DNA of 64,000 nt from Promethearchaeota archaeon (GCA_030603385.1 JAUVXW010000010.1:34737-98736); one strand, 5' to 3'; shown: positions 1,177 through 52,946, counted from the stretch's first letter. The notes: generated by a model not told the origin, from the letters alone. Made by a program: numbers and translations.

Positions 1177-3075
1177 ATGAAATCAAGTGCAAATTCAAAA
1201 ATCATTATTTTAATCACTTTAGGAATCCTTTTCGCTTTCTCACCTATAATTACCACTAATCTTAGTTTAATAATGGGCAGTAGTACCAAAAGTTCGGACT
1301 ATAATAAAAATCTACAAATCTCAGCAGTATCGGGAAAAATTCATATCATGAATAATTCAGGATGGGCTGCTTTTAGAAGTGATGGAAATTGTACGGGCAA
1401 TGGTACTTATTCCGAACCTTATGTCATAGAAGATTTGGTAATAGATGGCGAAGGCTCGGGAAATTGTATCGAGATTGAAAATTCCGATGTGTTCTTTAAG
1501 ATTGAAAATTGCACCGTCTACAATTCAGGAGATTCACCTAATGCGGGAATTCGATTATCATATGTTAACAATTCCCAATTAATTAATAACAATTGTTCAT
1601 CTAATTATTATGGGATACGGTTATCTTCTAGTAAGTATAACAACATTTCGGGAAACACTGCAAGGAACAACACTTTTTGTGGAATACTGTTATCTTCTAG
1701 TAATTATAACAACATATCGGGAAATAACGCAAGTTTCAACACTTATCATGGGATATGGTTACATTATAGTCAATATAACGACATTTCGGGAAACACCGCA
1801 AATAACAACTATAGGAATGGGATATGGTTATTTGATAGTGATAATAACATCATTTCGGGAAATAACGCAAGCTACAACACCAATAATGGGATATGGTTAT
1901 CTTCTAGTAATTATAACAACATTTCGGGAAATAATGCAAGCTACAACACTTATCTTGGGATAGAGTTAACTTTTAGTAATTATAACGACATTTCGGGAAA
2001 TAACGCAAGTTACAACACTTATTTTGGGATATATTTAAGATCTAGTGATAATAATATCATCGTAATAAACACAATTAATAATAATTCGGTTGGTATTAAG
2101 CTATATCATTCTATGCACAATGAAGTCTTAAATAACAGTTTTAGCGGTAATGGAGAGGATATTCAAGAAGTTTCCAGTAATAGTAATGGAGATCAATTTC
2201 CTCTTGAAATTGCAATAATAATAGTAGTGATTCTCATTGTCATTACAATGTCCATAGCGGGGATGCTTATTACAAGAAGAAGATTGTCTAGGGATAAAGT
2301 TATTTCAGATGAAGAATCAGGAGCAATTGAGATCACCGATGAGGGAATAATAAGCCTTTTCTATAATTCTGTTACTTTGCTAATTATTGGATGTATATTA
2401 TCTCTGGTCTCATTTCTTCATCTTCGTGATCTAGTATATCCTATCTCCTATGTAGGAGTTATAATTGGTATCATTGGATTAGTAGGGATTATTGCATATA
2501 AACTCGACCCAGAAAAAATGAAAAAATATTATTATCTATCTCGTGCAATGCTTTGGATTGGATGGACATTATTCATTGTTTTCTATTTTGGTATTTATAT
2601 TTTTTTTTGGATTTTATATTTTATTCCAATCGTGATTGGCGTCATTGGATTATGTGGTCTATTACTGCTCATATTTAAACCAAAAAAGTATATCGAACTA
2701 AGGAAGAAACGGAAAAGGAAAGAAAAAATGGGAAGAAGAAATCTAAGCATTGGTTTTAGTTTGATTGGTGGATTATTGGGTATAATTATAGGAATCTTTT
2801 TAGGATTGTGGGGGTGGGGGCATCCTATGTTCTATTATATGGCAGTAATCAGTATGGTCGCCATAATTGGAGCGATTATTGAATCGATAAATCGAATTGT
2901 TGGAAGTATTATTTGCTTAATTTCAGGAATTACAATTTTAATTACTTTAAATATTTATATATTCCTTATTATAATAGCCCCTTTACCTCCCCTTTTAATC
3001 ATAGTTGGTGGCGTACTCGGTATTTTGGAAGGCATACTCGGTATTTTGGAAGCAAGAAAAGCAAAAAAAAGTTGA
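1177..3075 (+). CDS. Cell-surface right-handed parallel beta-helix (NosD/CASH-like) protein with multi-pass membrane C-terminus
   Basis: N-terminal hydrophobic segment, GNGTYSEPYVIEDLVIDG motif, 22-aa repeats GIxLxxSxxNxISGNNAxxN, then several TM helices. Confidence 0.85.
   Translation: MKSSANSKIIILITLGILFAFSPIITTNLSLIMGSSTKSSDYNKNLQISAVSGKIHIMNNSGWAAFRSDGNCTGNGTYSEPYVIEDLVIDGEGSGNCIEIENSDVFFKIENCTVYNSGDSPNAGIRLSYVNNSQLINNNCSSNYYGIRLSSSKYNNISGNTARNNTFCGILLSSSNYNNISGNNASFNTYHGIWLHYSQYNDISGNTANNNYRNGIWLFDSDNNIISGNNASYNTNNGIWLSSSNYNNISGNNASYNTYLGIELTFSNYNDISGNNASYNTYFGIYLRSSDNNIIVINTINNNSVGIKLYHSMHNEVLNNSFSGNGEDIQEVSSNSNGDQFPLEIAIIIVVILIVITMSIAGMLITRRRLSRDKVISDEESGAIEITDEGIISLFYNSVTLLIIGCILSLVSFLHLRDLVYPISYVGVIIGIIGLVGIIAYKLDPEKMKKYYYLSRAMLWIGWTLFIVFYFGIYIFFWILYFIPIVIGVIGLCGLLLLIFKPKKYIELRKKRKRKEKMGRRNLSIGFSLIGGLLGIIIGIFLGLWGWGHPMFYYMAVISMVAIIGAIIESINRIVGSIICLISGITILITLNIYIFLIIIAPLPPLLIIVGGVLGILEGILGILEARKAKKS
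1606..2045 (+). repeat. About 66-bp tandem coding repeats (PbH1 repeats), 6-7 copies
   Basis: Recurring (a/g)acatttcgggaaa(t/c)aa(c/t)gcaag at 66-nt spacing. Confidence 0.85.
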
Positions 3076-9498: not shown

Positions 9499-11079
9499 TT
9501 AATTATGGTTTATTTCTTCTCCATATCCTATTAAGCGATAACGTCTATTAATTATACGAGAAATGGCATAAATGAAATTTTTGGGGGGGCATATTGGTGG
9601 GGAAAGTTTTATTATAGTAGAGTTTTTTAATATTTTTGTTACAGTTCCTCCAGTCTTTTCTGTACCAACAACTAATAACAATTTCTCACCATGTTTGAGT
9701 GGTTGAACCTTCATTTGAACTTCAGAACCAATCACTCGGTCTAAAAGATGGACGTCTAACTCGACTTCTGTTAATATTTCTGGAAGAGTTCCAGGTCCTC
9801 CAACTAGATGTCCAATTAGATGATCACCTTTGGTTAAAGCAGGATCTAATTTTGTCCCTAAACCAATTAATCCACCAGGTTTAGCAGTTTTTAAAAGATT
9901 ACTTCCTTGACTAATACTTACTACCATCGATTTTATTGGCATGTATTTATCCTTAATACGAATACCAGGTTTAATTTCGATTTGATCTCCAACCTCAATT
10001 TTTCCTTTTAATACGGAACCCCCTATTACACCGCCTTTTAAATCGATAATCTCTTTCCCAGGTCGATTGATATCAAATGATCTTGCTACTAAAAATTGAA
10101 ATGATTTTTCTTCTTTAAACTCTGGAGTCGGGATTATTTCTTCAAAAGCTTTCACAACAAGATCCAAATTCGCCTCAAAAACTGCCGATACAGGTATAAT
10201 TGGGGCATTCTCAGCAACAGTACCTTTAACAAATTCTTTAATCTGTTGGTAATTCTCTAAAACTTGTTCTCGAGAAACAGCATCAATTTTATTTTGTAAT
10301 ATTATAATATTTTTAATCCCTGCTATGTTTAAAGCAGCTAAATGTTCCCGAGTTTGAGGTTGAGGACATTTCTCGTCAGCAGCAATTAAAAAACATGCCC
10401 CATCCATTAATGAGGCACCACTTAACATGGTTGCCATCAAAATCTCGTGGCCTGGGGCATCTACAAAAGAAATATTGCGCTTAAATTCTAAATTTCCATT
10501 GCATTTTGAACATGCAAATCGAGGTTGTCCTTTCGCTCTGTTTTTTTCTGCAAGGTGGGCTGTTGTATATTCATCGCATTTAGGACAATAAAGAATTGTA
10601 GCATTGGAATATCCTAATTTTATCGAAATGCCTCTTTCTTGCTCTTCAGAATGTCGATCAGTCCAATCTCCTGTTAAAGATTTAACCAGCGTGGTTTTAC
10701 CGTGGTCTACATGACCAACAAGGCCAATATTGCATTCTGCTTGTTGTTTAATTAATTCCTTTTTTATGGATCCTTTTACCTTAGAAACTTGTTTTGGTTT
10801 TGGTTTTGGTTTAGATTTAGATTTTGATGCTGTCTTTTCACCAGTTTTTTCTTTTATTGTTGCTGAAGATTTTATTTTTCCACCTATTTCTTCAAAAACC
10901 TTTTTAGCATTTGTAATAATTTTTTCTGCAGTTACTTTTCCCACGCCTTTTATTTTTAATTTTACTAAATCATCAGGTTCTACAGCAACCAGTTTTTCAA
11001 TTGAATCTATTCCTGCCGCTTTCATTTTTTCTGCGGTTGATTTGCCAATTCCCGAGATATCTTCTAATTCATAGGACAT
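9499..11079 (-). CDS. eif2g: Translation initiation factor aIF-2/eIF2 gamma with N-terminal helix-hairpin-helix extension
   Basis: QAECNIGLVGHVDHGKTT, RGISIKLGY, Zn knuckle, DAPGHE, NKID, RSFDINRPG, RYRLIGYG; N-terminus LEDISGIGKSTAEKM...IKGVGKVTAEKI. Confidence 0.95.
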   Translation of the reverse strand: MSYELEDISGIGKSTAEKMKAAGIDSIEKLVAVEPDDLVKLKIKGVGKVTAEKIITNAKKVFEEIGGKIKSSATIKEKTGEKTASKSKSKPKPKPKQVSKVKGSIKKELIKQQAECNIGLVGHVDHGKTTLVKSLTGDWTDRHSEEQERGISIKLGYSNATILYCPKCDEYTTAHLAEKNRAKGQPRFACSKCNGNLEFKRNISFVDAPGHEILMATMLSGASLMDGACFLIAADEKCPQPQTREHLAALNIAGIKNIIILQNKIDAVSREQVLENYQQIKEFVKGTVAENAPIIPVSAVFEANLDLVVKAFEEIIPTPEFKEEKSFQFLVARSFDINRPGKEIIDLKGGVIGGSVLKGKIEVGDQIEIKPGIRIKDKYMPIKSMVVSISQGSNLLKTAKPGGLIGLGTKLDPALTKGDHLIGHLVGGPGTLPEILTEVELDVHLLDRVIGSEVQMKVQPLKHGEKLLLVVGTEKTGGTVTKILKNSTIIKLSPPICPPKNFIYAISRIINRRYRLIGYGEEINHN

Positions 11080-11527: not shown

Positions 11528-13657
11528 ATGGTAGAGTTTTCGTCAAAGAGGTTAGGGTCATTTTCATTTATTTTAATAATAATTACCCTAGTATTGGGTG
11601 TTTTCTTTATCAATCCTTACGCACATTTAAAAAAATTGAATTACTCAGAAATTACTCTGTCTACTAATGGGTATTCTGAAGTTGATTTATCATTTATACC
11701 CGAAATTGATTATGACTCATTAAATGACTCTTGGTATAACCCAAAAGTTAACATGTTAATTATCACTAAAAATGATTCTAATTTTGTCAATGCCCTAAAA
11801 CCTTTGATGGATTGGAAAAATGAGAAGGGTGTTAAAACGATTATATTAAGCAATTTTTCTGCTTATGGAGGGATAGACGATGCAGAGCGTATCCGAAACA
11901 TGATAAAAGCTTATTATGAAAATGAAAATATACAGTGGGTACTGTTGGCGGGAGATGCTCAAGATGATTTAATCCCCATTAGAAATGTATATAATCCTGA
12001 TGTATATCGTGTGACCGAGGGAATTAGATCTGAAACTGTCGGTGGAGAATTTTATAAGCCAACAGACTTTTATTATGCAGATCTTACTGGTATTTGGGAT
12101 AGTGATGGGGATGGAAATTGGGGAGAAGCTCCTCAAGACAATTCTTTTGGATTTGACGAAATCTCATGGATACCAGAAGTATATGTCGGAAGACTTCCCG
12201 CAAATGATGCATATGAGTTGGGAATTATGGTAAATAAAACATTAAAATATGAAAAAGACCCAGAAATTGGCGATTGGATGAACAGAATGTTATTAGCAGG
12301 GGGAATATCCGATTTCCCCGTTGGTAGTGACACTGATGGGGAATATGAAAGTGTTTTAACAGACTATATAATTCAAAATTATGCAAAATCAATTGTAAAT
12401 TATACCCATTTAATCAGAGAAGAGGGAAATCTTACTCAACCAATTCTCAATTATTATTTTAATAGTGGATATTCAACAGTTATTATGGCGGGTCATGGAG
12501 ATCCCACAACATATTATATAAGCGGGTCTACTCCGGGATATACTTCTAATGATGCTAAATCATGTTCAAATACTCACATGCCTTCTTTAGTTTATCTTGA
12601 CACTTGTTCGACGTCTAGTTATGATTATAATGATAACAGCATAGGAGAAATCCTAATAAACAGGAAGGATGCAGGTGCTATAGGAGTAATTGGGGGATTA
12701 AGAGTTACCTGGTATTATACAAATGATGAAAATCTTGAGAAATTAAATCGTGGAAATGCAAAATTATTTTGGGAAGAGTTTTTCGAACAAAAGAAATTTC
12801 AACAAGGACGGGCATTATACGATTCTAAAGTTGCGTATATAAACAGTGATTATTATACTAAAGGTTCTGGTTCAACAATTTATGATTTTGAACGCAAAAA
12901 TATTCTAACATATAACCTTTTAGGGGATCCAGAAGTTGATATTTACACAAATAACCCGAAAAACGCTATAAATCCATTTAACGAAATTTATTATGAGGGA
13001 GAATTCATATCTGTCATAATCAAAGATCTTAATAACTCAATAGTTCCATATGCGAGAGTTCATTTTAAAACTTCTGATGGTAAATATTATACTACATATG
13101 CGGATATTAATGGGATTGCTAAATTCCGATTACCTAAACAGGTCAGCGAAGTGTATAATGTAACAATAACAGGTCATAACTTAATCCCTTCATACTTCAA
13201 TTTTACCACTTCTATAGATAGTGTTAAACCAGGGTTTCATGAAATTTCTTATCTACCAAAAAATCCGTCAACTGCAAATGTAATATCTTTTAATGTAGAG
13301 GTTTTTGATAATCGCTCGGGAATAGAAAGTGTATATTTATTCATTTCTAATAACAATTTCAAAGATTATACCTATTTTACATCATCAAATGGTTTTTTAG
13401 ATAATGAAAGTGTTTTCACATTTAATGTAGATAGATTACATCCAGGTGAATATTCTTATTTTATTTTCGTCAGAGATTATGCAAACAATACAGACGTTTT
13501 TAATTACGAAATATTCAGATTTACTATTCCGAAACCTATCATTGATTATATACTTCCTGTTTCTTTAATTGTGATTATTGGAATTGCTGGAGTTTCTGCT
13601 TTTACAATTTACAAAGGAATAAAAAAGTATTCACGAGTAATTGAGAAATTAGAATAA
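11528..13657 (+). CDS. Peptidase C25 (gingipain-like) membrane-anchored cysteine protease
   Basis: WVLLAGD, TDFYYADL, VGRLP, catalytic GHG and TCS, YNLLGDP; N- and C-terminal TM helices. Confidence 0.9.
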   Translation: MVEFSSKRLGSFSFILIIITLVLGVFFINPYAHLKKLNYSEITLSTNGYSEVDLSFIPEIDYDSLNDSWYNPKVNMLIITKNDSNFVNALKPLMDWKNEKGVKTIILSNFSAYGGIDDAERIRNMIKAYYENENIQWVLLAGDAQDDLIPIRNVYNPDVYRVTEGIRSETVGGEFYKPTDFYYADLTGIWDSDGDGNWGEAPQDNSFGFDEISWIPEVYVGRLPANDAYELGIMVNKTLKYEKDPEIGDWMNRMLLAGGISDFPVGSDTDGEYESVLTDYIIQNYAKSIVNYTHLIREEGNLTQPILNYYFNSGYSTVIMAGHGDPTTYYISGSTPGYTSNDAKSCSNTHMPSLVYLDTCSTSSYDYNDNSIGEILINRKDAGAIGVIGGLRVTWYYTNDENLEKLNRGNAKLFWEEFFEQKKFQQGRALYDSKVAYINSDYYTKGSGSTIYDFERKNILTYNLLGDPEVDIYTNNPKNAINPFNEIYYEGEFISVIIKDLNNSIVPYARVHFKTSDGKYYTTYADINGIAKFRLPKQVSEVYNVTITGHNLIPSYFNFTTSIDSVKPGFHEISYLPKNPSTANVISFNVEVFDNRSGIESVYLFISNNNFKDYTYFTSSNGFLDNESVFTFNVDRLHPGEYSYFIFVRDYANNTDVFNYEIFRFTIPKPIIDYILPVSLIVIIGIAGVSAFTIYKGIKKYSRVIEKLE

Positions 13658-13668
13658 AATATTTTGTA

Positions 13669-14232
13669 TTAATCTAAATCATTATCTTCCAGAGGTTCAC
13701 TTTTTTTCAAATTAAGAAGATAAGAAATTGAGCTAATTGCCCCAAAGATTCCTTGTATGATTAAGGCTAAACAAATCAAAAATACAGCCAATAAATCATT
13801 GTATATAAACAAGAAAATAATTATAAAAATCCCTGCTAATGAAAATTTTATGATATATGAAATTTCGCTGAATAGGATTTTCCATACAGTAGATTTCTTT
13901 ACTCGAGACTCTAATTCTTTATGATATTTTGCTTCTCCAGCTTCTTTTATATACCAACTACCTTCTATATTATTGGCAAAAAGGAATACACTCCACCATA
14001 AAATAAAGAAGCTGAGATAGAAGTCTAATGCCCCTAAAACTACTAGGGGTATCTGCATTAAAACCATTCCTTTCCATCCAATACGTTTAGCCAATTTATT
14101 TGTCTCTAATTTTAATTCTTTCGACACATACCGCGTACTAAGTAAATCAAGTAATCGCCCTATAATTGTAATTAAAATATTTATTAAATACTGGTACCAC
14201 TGAACTTCTTGGAGGATTAATTGAAATATCAT
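13669..14232 (-). CDS. Integral membrane protein
   Basis: Four to five hydrophobic helices; LDLLST...LETN motif. Confidence 0.65.
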   Translation of the reverse strand: MIFQLILQEVQWYQYLINILITIIGRLLDLLSTRYVSKELKLETNKLAKRIGWKGMVLMQIPLVVLGALDFYLSFFILWWSVFLFANNIEGSWYIKEAGEAKYHKELESRVKKSTVWKILFSEISYIIKFSLAGIFIIIFLFIYNDLLAVFLICLALIIQGIFGAISSISYLLNLKKSEPLEDNDLD

Positions 14233-14430
14233 ATTCTAGAGCTTATCTTAGTTTACTCCTTTTAAATTTTGCCTTTTTCTATGAAAAAGTTTAATTACTA
14301 GTCTTTATTATTTCTCCTTACTCATTACCTAATAAGAAGGTATTTACGTTGTAAATAACCGTACTTATTAAATGGTAAACCCGTGGTTTTAAAACCACAT
14401 AAATGTACAACATTCAGTAAAGCGCCGGAA

Positions 14431-14582
14431 GTTAAACTATTAAGCGTTGCAGGATAGTACTGCAGTAAATAGTCTGTGGGAAACCTCAAACTGTAAGTTC
14501 GCTTACGGTCATGGTTTATAAGGATAATACCCGGTCCCATCTGAAAATCCAGCTTGAATCAAGGTGGATCGGGAACCCGGAA
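14431..14582 (+). rRNA. rrf: 5S rRNA, circularly permuted and intron-containing (exons in mature order: 14502-14545, 14576-14582, 14431-14497)
   Basis: 3'-half hallmarks (GUUAA...AGCGUU...AGUACUG...UGGGAAACC) lie upstream of 5'-half hallmarks (ACGGUCAU...ACCCGGUCCCAUC...GAACCCGGAA). Helix I ACUGUAAG/CUUACGGU is closed by UUCG; helix IV CUGCAG/CUGUGG and loop E AGUA/GAA are intact. Confidence 0.88.
14546..14575 (+). other. 30-nt BHB/BHL-type intron in loop C of the 5S rRNA
   Basis: Central helix UCUG/CGGG, 3-nt bulges AAA and AAC, intron hairpin AUCCA-G-CUUG/CAAG-G-UGGAU; excision restores UCCCAUCUGAAC. Confidence 0.75.
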
Positions 14583-14704
14583 ACGCTTATTTATGTGGTT
14601 AAACCTAATTTACTTCCCTTAAAGATATTAGATTTTGTTTAAAAATAATTTTTTTATGTGATCAATTATAAGTATATCATAATTAACAGTGGTAAATTGG
14701 AAAA

Positions 14705-15247
14705 ATGCCAAAAAAATATATAGTTGTTTTTAAAAGTATTGGACGAAGATGGTTCTTAATCCTTGTAATAATAATTATTATTATAGCAATTTTTAATCCA
14801 ATTGCAGCAATTTGGATGGCTGGAATAACATTAGTGATGTTTTTACTATCATATATTCCAAGACTCTTTTTCAAAAATAAACTCCACAGATTTATGAAAA
14901 AATTTTACAAGATCGAAGATGAATTGATTGCTAGAAAGCTTAAAAAACCTATTAAGAAAATCAGAGATGAGATGTTTGAATTATCTCAAAATCAAGAGAA
15001 AAAAAAAATGTTGATAGTATTTTTAAACAAACAGTACGTCTGTTACCATCAAGATACCATTAAAGCATTCAAGGAAGTTTACAATGAAGGTTATAGTGAA
15101 AAGGAAATGCTTGATAATTTGAAAAATTATAAAATTAATACTAGGCTAGAAATTAAAGCAATTCAAGACACTTTAATCAAACTTGATAGACTTAGTGAAC
15201 GGGAAATTTCCGTAAAAGAGCATAAAGAAAAACAAAGATTTGCATAA
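14705..15247 (+). CDS. Hypothetical membrane protein
   Basis: Two N-terminal TM helices, basic cytoplasmic domain. Confidence 0.65.
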   Translation: MPKKYIVVFKSIGRRWFLILVIIIIIIAIFNPIAAIWMAGITLVMFLLSYIPRLFFKNKLHRFMKKFYKIEDELIARKLKKPIKKIRDEMFELSQNQEKKKMLIVFLNKQYVCYHQDTIKAFKEVYNEGYSEKEMLDNLKNYKINTRLEIKAIQDTLIKLDRLSEREISVKEHKEKQRFA

Positions 15248-52845: not shown

Positions 52846-52946
52846 GGGAGAGTGGTCTAGCTTGGTATGATACTGTAGGGTATTCTCTACAGCATGAATC
52901 TTGGTTTGGGACCAAGGGGCCGAGGGTTCGAATCCCTCCTCTCCCA
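52846..52946 (+). tRNA. trnP: tRNA-Pro(TGG) with 27-nt BHB intron at position 25/26 (52872-52898)
   Basis: Acceptor GGGAGAG/CTCTCCC+A, anticodon arm CTTGG-TT TGG GA-CCAAG, T arm GAGGG-TTCGAAT-CCCTC; BHB TATG/CATG with bulges ATA/AAT; CCA not encoded. Confidence 0.95.

What the first reader, a model, noticed from the sequence alone, without database searches (positions are those of the whole stretch)
14393..14600. Circularly permuted 5S rRNA gene built to be circularised by the archaeal BHB splicing machinery
Seen in sequence: the 3' half of a 5S rRNA (14431-14497: GUUAAAC...AGCGUUGCAGGAU-AGUA-CUGCAG...CUGUGG-GAA-ACCUCAAACUGUAAG) lies upstream of the 5' half (14502 onward: CUUACGGUCAU...ACCCGGUCCCAUC...GAACCCGGAA). 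The normal 5' and 3' ends are joined as an 8-bp helix I (ACUGUAAG/CUUACGGU) capped by UUCG. The new gene ends fall in helix III, where CCGGAA occurs at both ends (14425-14430 and 14577-14582). These ends pair as AAGCG/CGCUU + CCGG/CCGG with bulges AA(G) and AAA, stacked on a perfect 12-bp outer stem (14393-14404/14589-14600). Established: archaeal splicing endonuclease cuts after the second nt of each bulge and RtcB ligates; permuted tRNA genes (Cyanidioschyzon, Thermofilum) mature through such a circular intermediate. Inference: cutting at 14430/14431 and 14582/14583 and ligating gives GAACCCGGAA|GUUAA, the canonical 5S sequence, and a circle of 122 nt after intron removal. The circle may stay closed or be reopened at the UUCG. 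I know of permuted 5S genes from some organelle genomes but not of a BHB-permuted 5S in archaea. Linear rRNA models would miss or fragment it.
Basis: partly seen in the sequence, partly recalled or inferred. Interest (0 to 1): 0.97.

Follow-up and report, generated by a model that had tools for sequence, protein, structure and literature searches.

The report
Back-to-front 5S rRNA gene, spliced
This Lokiarchaeial (Asgard) genome encodes its only 5S ribosomal RNA with the back half before the front half and a 30-base insert, all between tRNA-splicing-type cut signals, so a normal 5S can form only by cutting and re-joining the transcript, and RNA from close relatives contains exactly that re-joined 122-base form.

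Summary
Window 14431-14497 is the 5S 3' half, 14498-14501 is a UUCG cap on helix I, and 14502-14545 plus 14576-14582 is the 5' half. A 12-bp outer stem and a bulge-helix-bulge (BHB) flank it.

- **Only 5S candidate:** no other 5S exists in the 94%-complete genome.
- **5S identity:** reordered and spliced, the RNA aligns end to end with the linear 5S of the sister family.
- **Conservation:** the design holds in 118 of 131 genomes of the family, in two further families of the order, and in seven other Asgard families. Compensatory changes occur in the outer stem, H1, the central helix and the intron hairpin.
- **RNA:** metatranscriptome contigs from two studies form closed 122-nt cycles that cross both the UUCG cap and the predicted ligation junction.
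- **Enzymes:** the genome has two EndA paralogues and RtcB.

New here:
- There are three different break points. Two of them coexist within single genera.
- Optional BHB introns occur at two or more sites.

Not shown:
- that single molecules are rings;
- that the ring is the form in the ribosome;
- that this genome's own intron is spliced.

I found no publication describing this. The scan itself has noted permuted Asgard 5S genes before on other DNA (115 notes in at least 91 genomes).

The parts
14365..14372 (+). Candidate TATA box (TTATTAAA) within a conserved upstream motif (AACCGnACTTATWAAATGG)
   Evidence: Read from the sequence and conserved at the same distance in class A and B loci. It would place the transcription start at about 14393-14397, the start of the outer stem. 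This is inference and was not tested.
14393..14404 (+). Outer processing stem, 5' strand (leader)
   Evidence: Exact 12-bp complement of 14589-14600. Five of nine pairs in the main helix block show compensatory changes. It appears in both the MFE and centroid folds.
14405..14419 (+). Leader spacer; forms a small hairpin in most relatives but only a weak one here
   Evidence: In class B the hairpin GUAGC-AAUUC-GCUAC is 100% paired, with one compensatory pair. In G000 only 2-3 pairs are possible.
14420..14424 (+). BHB outer helix H1, 5' strand (AAGCG)
   Evidence: Pairs with 14584-14588. Three of five pairs show compensatory changes. H1 is 3-8 bp in all 48 unique precursors.
14425..14428 (+). 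BHB central 4-bp helix, leader strand Ca (CCGG)
   Evidence: Pairs with 14577-14580. Fully paired in 47 of 48 precursors. Ca reads CUGG where the mature strand changes to CCAG or UCAG, which keeps four pairs.
14429..14431 (+). 5' bulge AAG; predicted cut at 14430|14431
   Evidence: The cut-after-second-nucleotide rule gives the canonical junction. RNA contigs read ...CCGGAA-GUUAAAC.
14431..14497 (+). 5S rRNA 3' half: helix III 3' end, helix II 3' strand, helices V/IV, helix I 3' strand
   Evidence: Aligns to linear-5S profile positions 53-115. Helices II, IV, V and I were recovered with 16 of 26 covarying pairs. Covered by RNA contigs.
14498..14501 (+). UUCG tetraloop joining the native 3' and 5' ends of 5S
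   Evidence: In f1 relatives the loop is mostly four nucleotides (UUCG, UUUG, UUAG, UCCG, UACG and others). RNA contigs of four studies read across it.
14502..14545 (+). 5S rRNA 5' part: helix I 5' strand, loop A, helix II 5' strand, loop B, helix III 5' strand, first part of loop C
   Evidence: Aligns to the linear 5S. Covered by RNA contigs.
14546..14575 (+). 30-nt BHB intron in loop C
   Evidence: Central helix UCUG (14540-43): CGGG (14570-73); bulges AAA (14544-46) and AAC (14574-76); hairpin 14547-55 / 14561-69. It is absent from L014, which is 98% identical over the 104-nt core. Removing it raises the 5S score from 25 to 37 bits. Six of nine hairpin pairs covary.
14576..14582 (+). Last exon piece CCCGGAA (helix III 3' strand and A-bulge); contains Cb (CCGG, 14577-14580)
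14581..14583 (+). 3' bulge AAA; predicted cut at 14582|14583
   Evidence: a 3-nt bulge in the centroid fold.
14584..14588 (+). BHB outer helix H1, 3' strand (CGCUU)
14589..14600 (+). Outer processing stem, 3' strand (trailer)

Best explanation
Window 14393-14600 is the single, functional 5S rRNA gene of this Lokiarchaeial genome, encoded in circularly permuted order. The transcript probably starts near 14393 (inferred). Its leader and trailer pair into a 12-bp stem plus a 5-bp helix. That holds a 4-bp helix (leader CCGG with CCGG of the 5S helix III strand) between two 3-nt bulges, which is a relaxed bulge-helix-bulge motif.

The archaeal splicing endonuclease (two EndA paralogues are present) is inferred to cut after the second nucleotide of each bulge, at 14430|14431 and 14582|14583. 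RtcB is inferred to join the new ends. This recreates the universal ...CCCGGAA-GUUAAAC... sequence of helix III.

A second, canonical BHB inside loop C removes the 30-nt insert 14546-14575. The product is a 122-nt closed RNA: 118 nt of 5S plus the UUCG cap on helix I.

What is shown and what is inferred:
- Shown: the anatomy, its conservation and covariation, the absence of any other 5S gene, the presence of the enzymes, and the re-joined junction together with the UUCG joint in environmental RNA of close relatives.
- Inferred: which enzymes act, the order of the two splicing events, splicing of this genome's own insert, and that the closed ring rather than a re-opened form sits in the ribosome.
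For: **Identity**
- Reordered RNAs give one end-to-end match (profile positions 3-114) to a profile of nine linear 5S genes of sister family f2, at 25-49 bits before the loop-C insert is removed. After its removal the three insert-bearing RNAs score 37 bits (G000), 45 and 55.
- Native order gives two partial hits, and shuffles score at most 2.5 bits.
- Helices I, II, IV and V are recovered on the genomic order, with 16 of 26 covarying pairs.

**Only copy**
- RF00001 finds nothing in the genome at E<=10, while the controls ring.
- The linear-5S profile's best genome hit is this locus, and the other hits lie in coding sequence.
- The mature junction string is absent from the DNA.

**Conservation**
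- Covariance model R1 of the permuted core matches full-length in 118 of 131 genomes of family f1 (12 genera, 74-109 bits), in f3, and in genus g4 of f4.
- It also matches in seven further families of the phylum. All inspected loci are permuted with BHB flanks.
- Two closed chromosomes of the genus (CP070831, CP070805) carry a single such locus.

**BHB rule**
- In 47 of 48 unique precursors the 4-bp helix is fully paired with 3-nt bulges placed so that cutting gives the canonical 5S.
- Class A: 93.2% paired against 27-40% slid; 20 of 42 pairs compensatory; 0 of 500 shuffles.
- Class B: 97.5% against 31-43%.
- Leader Ca tracks the mature Cb: CCGG:CCGG, CUGG:CCAG and CUGG:UCAG.
- Two other break points, class B (GGUC|CCAU) and f3 (CGGAA|ACACC), obey the same rule and give the same mature RNA.

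**RNA**
- In metatranscriptomes of two studies (X1, X11), 152-nt contigs have identical first and last 30 letters. That is a 122-nt cycle. They pass through the UUCG joint and through ...CCCAU-UCGAAC-CCGGAA-GUUAAAC.
- Loose ends in X3 and X5 also read across the junction.

**Enzymes and substrates**
- Two EndA paralogues (198 and 200 aa) and one RtcB are present.
- A tRNA-Pro in the window carries an intron at a non-canonical position.

**Fold**
- The centroid of the precursor shows the motif.

**Precedent**
- The permuted SRP RNA of Thermoproteus is cut by EndA at a BHB and circularised (PMC4731332).
Against: - The RNA evidence is from assembled contigs of close relatives. X1 matches the intron-less L014/G019-type sequence, not this genome.
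- Contigs show that both joints exist in the RNA pool. They do not show that one molecule carries both, and they say nothing about ribosome incorporation.
- The helix on the inner side of the 5' bulge (H2) does not form, so the motif is relaxed and needs a broad-specificity endonuclease. The enzyme type is inferred only from there being two paralogues.
- The MFE fold prefers an alternative pairing of the leader CCGG with the helix III 5' strand. A palindrome just upstream (14384-14398) could compete with the outer stem.
- Rfam RF00001 could not be run on the joined sequence.
- Splicing of this genome's own 30-nt insert rests on comparison only.
- Related sequences share ancestry, so the shuffle statistics overstate independence.
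Confidence: 0.85

Rival explanations
1. The gene is cut and circularised as described, but the ring is only an intermediate. It is re-opened, at or near the UUCG loop, to give an ordinary linear 5S with its ends in helix I. Permuted tRNAs and circular pre-16S/23S rRNAs are re-opened in this way.
For: Known circular pre-16S and pre-23S rRNAs are usually re-linearised (PMC12918454). Permuted tRNA genes mature through a circular intermediate (established knowledge, cited in PMC4267664). Contigs cannot tell a ring from a mixture of precursor and re-opened forms.
Against: - The linker in family f1 is almost always a bare 4-nt tetraloop (UUCG, UUUG, UUAG and similar) on a covarying 8-bp helix. There is no spacer that an end-processing enzyme could recognise.
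- RNA contigs of four studies read through the loop at depths of about 4 to 125.
- The permuted SRP RNA stays circular (PMC4731332).
Confidence: 0.3
2. The RNA is released at the two bulges but never ligated. The ribosome would carry a permuted linear 5S with its ends in helix III and a capped helix I, like the permuted organellar 5S rRNAs.
For: Permuted 5S rRNAs with a closing hairpin exist in organelles without any known ligation step (PMC4267664).
Against: RNA contigs from two studies, and loose ends from two more, read straight across the junction. In neither break-point class is that sequence colinear with the DNA. The cut would leave helix III and the conserved A-bulge broken. RtcB is present.
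Confidence: 0.05
3. The locus is a decayed or mis-assembled 5S, for example a collapsed tandem array of 122-nt units, and the true 5S gene lies in the unassembled part of the genome.
For: The genome is a 58-contig assembly, 94% complete with 7% contamination. A tandem DNA array would also give a cyclic contig.
Against: - The same single-unit locus, with unique flanks, occurs in over 100 genomes, including closed chromosomes.
- None of the 24 congeners searched has a 5S above the Rfam cut-off.
- The flanks covary as RNA helices, including G-U pairs.
- Three different break points each hold exactly one unit.
Confidence: 0.02

Closest known systems
Permuted, circularised SRP RNA gene of Thermoproteus tenax / T. 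uzoniensis (Plagens et al. 2015, eLife, PMC4731332)
   Same: A universal structured RNA whose gene seemed to be missing. The gene is circularly permuted. Leader and trailer form a BHB, which EndA was shown to cut in vitro. The ends are ligated (RtcB proposed) into a circle that restores a functional element. The host has a two-subunit, relaxed-specificity endonuclease and many unusual tRNA introns.
   Different: Here the RNA is the 5S rRNA, a core ribosome component. The trait spans whole families and several Asgard lineages rather than two species. The break point differs between relatives (three sites). The permuted gene also carries optional BHB introns. Cleavage and circularity have not been tested biochemically here.
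Circularly permuted tRNA genes (Cyanidioschyzon merolae; some Thermoproteales), Soma et al. 2007 as cited in PMC4267664
   Same: The 3' half is encoded upstream of the 5' half. There is a BHB at the junction of leader and trailer. Maturation goes through a circular intermediate made by the splicing machinery. Break points coincide with typical intron sites.
   Different: In tRNAs the linker between the native ends is removed by RNase P and tRNase Z, so the final product is linear. Here the linker is a 4-nt tetraloop with no evident processing signal.
Circular pre-16S and pre-23S rRNA intermediates, and circular or permuted mature 23S, of archaea (PMC12918454; PMC7758197; bioRxiv 10.64898/2026.03.23.713588)
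   Same: A BHB in a leader-trailer processing stem, EndA cleavage, and ligation to a circle. In some lineages the circular or permuted form is kept in the ribosome.
   Different: Those genes are colinear with the canonical rRNA, so circularisation is not needed to create the right sequence order. The 2026 Genome Biology paper states that this processing applies to 16S and 23S 'but not 5S rRNAs'. The low-level 5S circles reported from Sulfolobus and Pyrococcus come from linear genes without a BHB.
Permuted organellar 5S rRNAs (Valach et al. 2014, PMC4267664)
   Same: The 5S has its native ends joined by a hairpin and new ends elsewhere. Standard covariance models miss it.
   Different: These are organelle genomes. 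No BHB flanks and no ligation step are known, so the RNA stays linear and permuted.
Archaeal BHB introns in rRNA and mRNA (16S/23S introns of Crenarchaeota; cbf5 pre-mRNA intron, PMC2738675 as named in an earlier scan note, not read here)
   Same: The 30-nt insert 14546-14575 has the canonical 4-bp helix, two 3-nt bulges and an intron hairpin. It is present or absent among close relatives.
   Different: It sits in loop C of a 5S rRNA, and inside a gene that is itself permuted. My searches found no report of a 5S intron.

Membership tests
5S rRNA (Rfam RF00001) | Score at or above the Rfam gathering threshold (38 bits) on the gene as encoded | tested here: not met
   No hit in the window or the genome even at E<=10. 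Congeners score 18-32 bits at the homologous loci. This is expected for a permuted gene.
5S rRNA (Rfam RF00001) | Full-length similarity of the mature (reordered, spliced) RNA to bona fide 5S | tested here: met
   nhmmer with a profile of nine linear 5S genes of the sister family gives 37.1 bits for G000 (profile positions 4-114 of 118) and 33-55 bits for relatives. Shuffles score at most 2.5 bits. RF00001 itself could not be run on a joined sequence.
5S rRNA (Rfam RF00001) | Three-way junction with helices I, II/III and IV/V supported by covariation, and conserved loop motifs (CCGAAC, GUUAAGC-like, AGUAC, GGGAA) | tested here: met
   RNAalifold on 29 permuted cores recovers helices I, II, IV and V, with 16 of 26 pairs compensatory. 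Helix III (CCGG/CCGG with the AA bulge) forms in the circle. The motifs are visible in the alignment.
5S rRNA (Rfam RF00001) | Incorporation into the large ribosomal subunit | not testable with these tools
   Needs ribosome purification or cryo-EM.
BHB-permuted non-coding RNA genes (permuted tRNA, permuted SRP RNA) | 3' part encoded upstream of the 5' part, with the native ends joined by a short linker | tested here: met
   profile positions 53-115 lie upstream of positions 3-50, and helix I is closed by UUCG.
BHB-permuted non-coding RNA genes (permuted tRNA, permuted SRP RNA) | Leader and trailer form a 4-bp helix flanked by 3-nt bulges, with cuts that yield the canonical sequence | tested here: met
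   47 of 48 unique precursors. Covariation. Centroid fold. The inner helix H2 is missing, so the motif is a relaxed form.
BHB-permuted non-coding RNA genes (permuted tRNA, permuted SRP RNA) | Ligated junction present in cellular RNA | tested here: met
   Contigs of X1 and X11 go back from 14540 to 14425 with TCGAAC between, and each forms a 122-nt cycle. Loose ends in X3 and X5 also cross the junction. The caveat is that these are contigs from close relatives, not raw reads of this organism.
BHB-permuted non-coding RNA genes (permuted tRNA, permuted SRP RNA) | Cleavage by the splicing endonuclease and ligation by RtcB | not testable with these tools
   The genes are present: two EndA paralogues and one RtcB. 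Activity on this substrate was not tested.
Archaeal BHB intron (for 14546-14575) | 4-bp central helix, two 3-nt bulges on opposite strands, flanking helix; removal restores the conserved sequence | tested here: met
   UCUG:CGGG, bulges AAA and AAC, and a 9-bp hairpin with one mismatch. The spliced loop C has the same length as in the intron-less L014. The central helix and six of nine hairpin pairs are supported by covariation.
Archaeal BHB intron (for 14546-14575) | Spliced exon junction observed in RNA of the intron-bearing organism | tested here: inconclusive
   The RNA contigs that were laid come from intron-less or unassignable relatives.
Circular pre-rRNA processing intermediates (16S/23S type) | Gene colinear with the mature rRNA; the circle is re-opened to the encoded ends | tested here: not met
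   The gene order is permuted. The linear 5S genes of sister family f2 have no BHB flanks at all.
Permuted organellar 5S rRNA | Permuted linear RNA without ligation, in an organelle genome | tested here: not met
   This is an archaeal chromosome. The ligated junction is present in RNA.

The most novel reading that the evidence does not exclude
In most Lokiarchaeia and several other Asgard lineages the ribosome carries a covalently closed circular 5S rRNA. The cell's only 5S therefore depends on the tRNA-splicing machinery. The gene is also repeatedly re-permuted (three break points, two of them coexisting within single genera) and gains or loses BHB introns. That pattern suggests the RNA circle itself, through reverse transcription or recombination, feeds back into the gene.
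Probability: 0.45. Interest if true: 0.95.

Novelty: new variant of a known kind. Interest (0 to 1): 0.88.

Why it matters
- **Annotation:** it explains why standard pipelines find no 5S gene in this genome and its relatives, and gives a working model (R1) to find these genes.
- **Reach of splicing:** it makes an essential ribosomal RNA dependent on EndA and RtcB, extending the known reach of archaeal splicing from tRNA, SRP RNA and pre-16S/23S to the 5S.
- **Ribosome biology:** if the ring is the mature form, it would be a natural ribosome with a circular 5S.
- **Evolution:** alternative break points and optional introns within one genus offer a rare, datable series for studying how permuted genes arise and move.
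- **Why it was missed:** the lineage is among the closest archaeal relatives of eukaryotes.

Tried and rejected
- **Rfam on the native locus:** it gave only spurious sub-threshold hits (LOOT 16.8 bits, freshwater-2, Ysr251). These were rejected.
- **ARAGORN:** it finds no tRNA in the window, so it cannot be relied on for intron-bearing genes here.
- **RF00001 on the joined sequence:** I used nhmmer with a linear-5S profile and my own covariance model instead.
- **Weak linear-5S hits on C10 and C36:** these lie inside protein-coding sequence and were rejected.
- **Pattern scan:** thirteen hits are bacterial (Parabacteroides, Clostridia and others), with different spacing and coding context, so they are chance matches.
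- **RNA coverage gaps:** RNA contigs give no cover on the leader (14385-14424), on 14546-14576 or on the trailer. It shows neither that precursors are rare nor that the insert is spliced.
- **aIF2-gamma insert:** earlier notes on relatives report a BHB insert in this gene. I looked for it here and it is absent. The P-loop GHVDHGKTT is intact.
- **No R1 match in families f7, f9 and f14:** this is not evidence of a linear 5S there. The model was trained on Lokiarchaeial sequences, and earlier scan notes report permuted 5S genes in Heimdall-group genomes.
- **Tandem-array or mis-assembly reading:** rejected on the closed chromosomes and the unique covarying flanks.
- **ORF 14325-14540 (minus strand, 71 aa):** it overlaps the gene and has no support.

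Full report
**Observation.**
- 14431-14497 reads as the 3' half of a 5S rRNA.
- 14498-14501 is UUCG.
- 14502-14545 and 14576-14582 read as the 5' half.
- ACUGUAAG (14490-97) pairs with CUUACGGU (14502-09).
- CCGGAA occurs at 14425-30 and at 14577-82.
- AAGCG (14420-24) pairs with CGCUU (14584-88).
- 14393-14404 is the exact complement of 14589-14600.

The joined RNA is 118 nt. The body without the insert is 122 nt. Rfam finds no 5S in the window, at its gathering threshold or at E<=10.

**Is it a 5S, and the only one?**
- RF00001 finds nothing in the whole 3.9-Mb assembly (94% complete), although it rings in all 14 control genomes.
- None of 24 genomes of the same genus has a hit above the cut-off. 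Their weak 18-32-bit hits lie on homologues of this locus wherever both sets of coordinates are listed. Nine of the 11 genomes of sister family f2 have normal 5S genes at 53-69 bits.
- I built a profile from nine of those linear genes. Reordering the RNAs of this genus turns two partial hits into one end-to-end hit at 25-49 bits. Removing the 30-nt insert raises G000 from 25.1 to 37.1 bits. Shuffles score at most 2.5 bits.
- The same profile searched against the whole genome finds this locus first. The only other hits are chance matches inside coding sequence. The mature junction string is absent from the DNA.

**Comparative anatomy.** I extracted homologous loci from relatives and from a pattern scan of 185,579 species genomes. 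The scan returned 48 Asgard MAGs filed under Promethearchaeota or Promethearchaeia, including closed chromosomes CP070831 and CP070805, plus 13 chance bacterial hits. All complete archaeal loci share one plan:
- an outer stem and, in most, a small leader hairpin;
- helix H1;
- a 4-nt leader strand (Ca);
- a 3-nt bulge;
- a body of 120-122 nt, or 150-152 nt with one insert and about 180 nt with two;
- a 3-nt bulge;
- H1 again, then the outer stem.

**Break points.** There are two break points inside the one genus.
- Class A (this genome) breaks at GGAA|GUUAAAC.
- Class B breaks 16 nt earlier, at CCGGUC|CCAUCC.
- The flanks are homologous in both classes. The same leader Ca can pair with either strand of helix III, because both strands read CCGG.
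- Genus g1 holds 13 class A and 24 class B genomes among those parsed. Genus g14 also holds both classes.
- Family f3 uses a third site, at the helix II/loop B boundary (Ca CCGA: Cb UCGG, both bulges AAA).

In every case, cutting after the second bulge nucleotide and joining gives the same canonical 5S.

**Statistics on the motif.**
- In 47 of 48 unique precursors the central helix is fully paired, and H1 is 3-8 bp in all.
- On the class A alignment, 93.2% of cells pair, against 27-40% when partners are slid. Twenty of 42 pairs carry compensatory changes and 0 of 500 shuffles reach that.
- Class B pairs at 97.5%, against 31-43% slid, but varies little.
- In other genera the mature helix III strand changes to CCAG or UCAG. 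The leader Ca then reads CUGG, which keeps four pairs. Some H1 helices are entirely different in sequence but still complementary.
- These sequences are related, so the shuffle counts overstate independence. The slid-partner control and the G-U-containing changes still argue for RNA pairing.
- The precursor folds well below shuffled controls (z = -3.9), and the centroid structure shows the motif without being told.

**The inserts.** The 30 nt at 14546-14575 form a canonical BHB.
- The central helix is UCUG:CGGG, the bulges are AAA and AAC, and the hairpin is 9 bp with one mismatch.
- The cuts fall at 14545|14546 and 14575|14576.
- The insert is absent from L014, which is 98% identical over the 104-nt core. 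Its hairpin covaries at six of nine pairs.
- In other genera it has a different sequence at the same site.

A second optional insert of about 30 nt sits in the helix IV loop of other species. It also obeys the rule and restores the loop UUGCGAU. Two loci carry both inserts. I saw no class B gene with the loop-C insert.

**Distribution.** I built covariance model R1 from the part every permuted form shares.
- It matches full-length in 118 of 131 genomes of family f1 (12 genera), in f3, and in genus g4 of f4.
- Family f2 gives only 29-35 bits on what are probably its linear genes.
- Those linear genes are plain promoter-to-terminator units without a BHB.
- In a sample of the phylum, seven more families match.
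- All eleven loci I fetched are permuted with BHB flanks. One is a closed 1.42-Mb genome with a perfect 10-bp H1 and a perfect central helix.

**RNA.** Fourteen metatranscriptome runs from eight studies hold part of the stretch. I laid contigs of four runs from four studies.
- Runs X1 and X11 each contain a 152-nt contig whose first 30 letters equal its last 30. Assuming the contigs were assembled with 31-letter words, that is a closed 122-nt cycle.
- Each contig passes through the UUCG joint and then goes back from 14540 to 14425, with TCGAAC between. That reads ...ACCCGGUCCCAU-UCGAAC-CCGGAA-GUUAAAC....
- This sequence spans both the class A and the class B break points. It is therefore not colinear with the DNA of either class.
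- The X1 contig carries the two substitutions typical of the L014-type species.
- Loose ends in X3 and X5 also read across the junction.
- This shows that ligation happens in relatives. It does not show that single molecules are rings, and it does not involve this genome's own RNA.

**Enzymes and context.**
- The genome has two EndA paralogues of 198 and 200 aa, each with both domains, and one RtcB.
- Two subunits suggest the relaxed-specificity heteromeric enzyme that cuts the permuted SRP RNA of Thermoproteus (PMC4731332). That fits a motif that lacks the inner helix.
- A tRNA-Pro gene in the window carries an intron at a non-canonical position.

**Literature and earlier notes.**
- My searches found no report of a BHB-permuted or circular archaeal 5S.
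- A 2026 paper states that circularisation applies to 16S and 23S but not 5S.
- A 2026 preprint mentions low-level 5S circles arising from linear genes without a BHB.
- The scan itself holds 115 earlier notes on permuted Asgard 5S genes in at least 91 genomes. One notes the loop-C insert on this same stretch.
- I found none on alternative break points.

**Verdict.** This is a real and conserved feature, and the only 5S gene of the genome. It is matured by cut-and-join at BHB motifs (confidence 0.85). Whether the ring is the final ribosomal form is open, at about even odds.

Noticed in passing
window 52847-52946 (+): tRNA-Pro(UGG) gene (GGGAGAG...CUCUCCCA) with an insert of about 25 nt between the D arm and the anticodon arm. 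This is a non-canonical intron position. Rfam aligns only the 3' part (33.9 bits) and ARAGORN misses the gene.
   Followed up: partly
window 9499-11079 (-): aIF2-gamma is 526 aa, with an N-terminal HHH_5 domain and a lysine-rich linker fused in front of the GTPase. The P-loop GHVDHGKTT is uninterrupted, so the BHB insert that earlier notes report in relatives is absent in this genome.
   Followed up: yes
L010 (G026, family f3), about 1415-1508 (-) plus flanks: Third break point of the permuted 5S, at the helix II/loop B boundary (...CAUCGGAA|ACACCC...). Helix I is shortened and closed by a 7-nt loop.
   Followed up: partly
L076:2290-2506 (+): The loop-C insert here is of a different kind. It contains a second copy of the 5S segment GGAUAAUACCCGGUCCC, so it looks like a partial internal duplication rather than the usual hairpin intron.
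   Followed up: no
L044:2108-2353 (-) and L045:576-822 (+): Permuted 5S genes that carry both the loop-C and the helix IV-loop inserts. That makes three BHB motifs in one gene of about 180 nt. L085 and L090 carry further variants of the second insert.
   Followed up: partly
L104 (G031:C2:11659-11779, family f4): A linear-order 5S-like sequence (28.6 bits) with a normal 5' half but a very divergent 3' half. It sits in a family where other members are permuted. The genome is 78% complete, so contamination is possible.
   Followed up: no
window 14384-14398 (+): Palindrome GTGGTT-TTAA-AACCAC overlaps the start of the outer stem and is conserved in class A relatives. It could form an alternative hairpin that competes with the outer stem, or it could be part of the promoter region.
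   Followed up: no
G014:C211:1-89, G045:C51:21538-21607, G115:C109:5310-5372: Some family members give a second, weaker or truncated match to the permuted-core model. These could be second copies or fragments.
   Followed up: no
window 11528-13657 (+) and 13669-14232 (-), 14705-15247 (+): The 5S gene lies between a C25 (gingipain-like) peptidase gene and two small ORFs with no Pfam match. The start of the downstream ORF (ATGCCAAAAAAA...) is conserved next to the 5S gene across the genus.
   Followed up: partly
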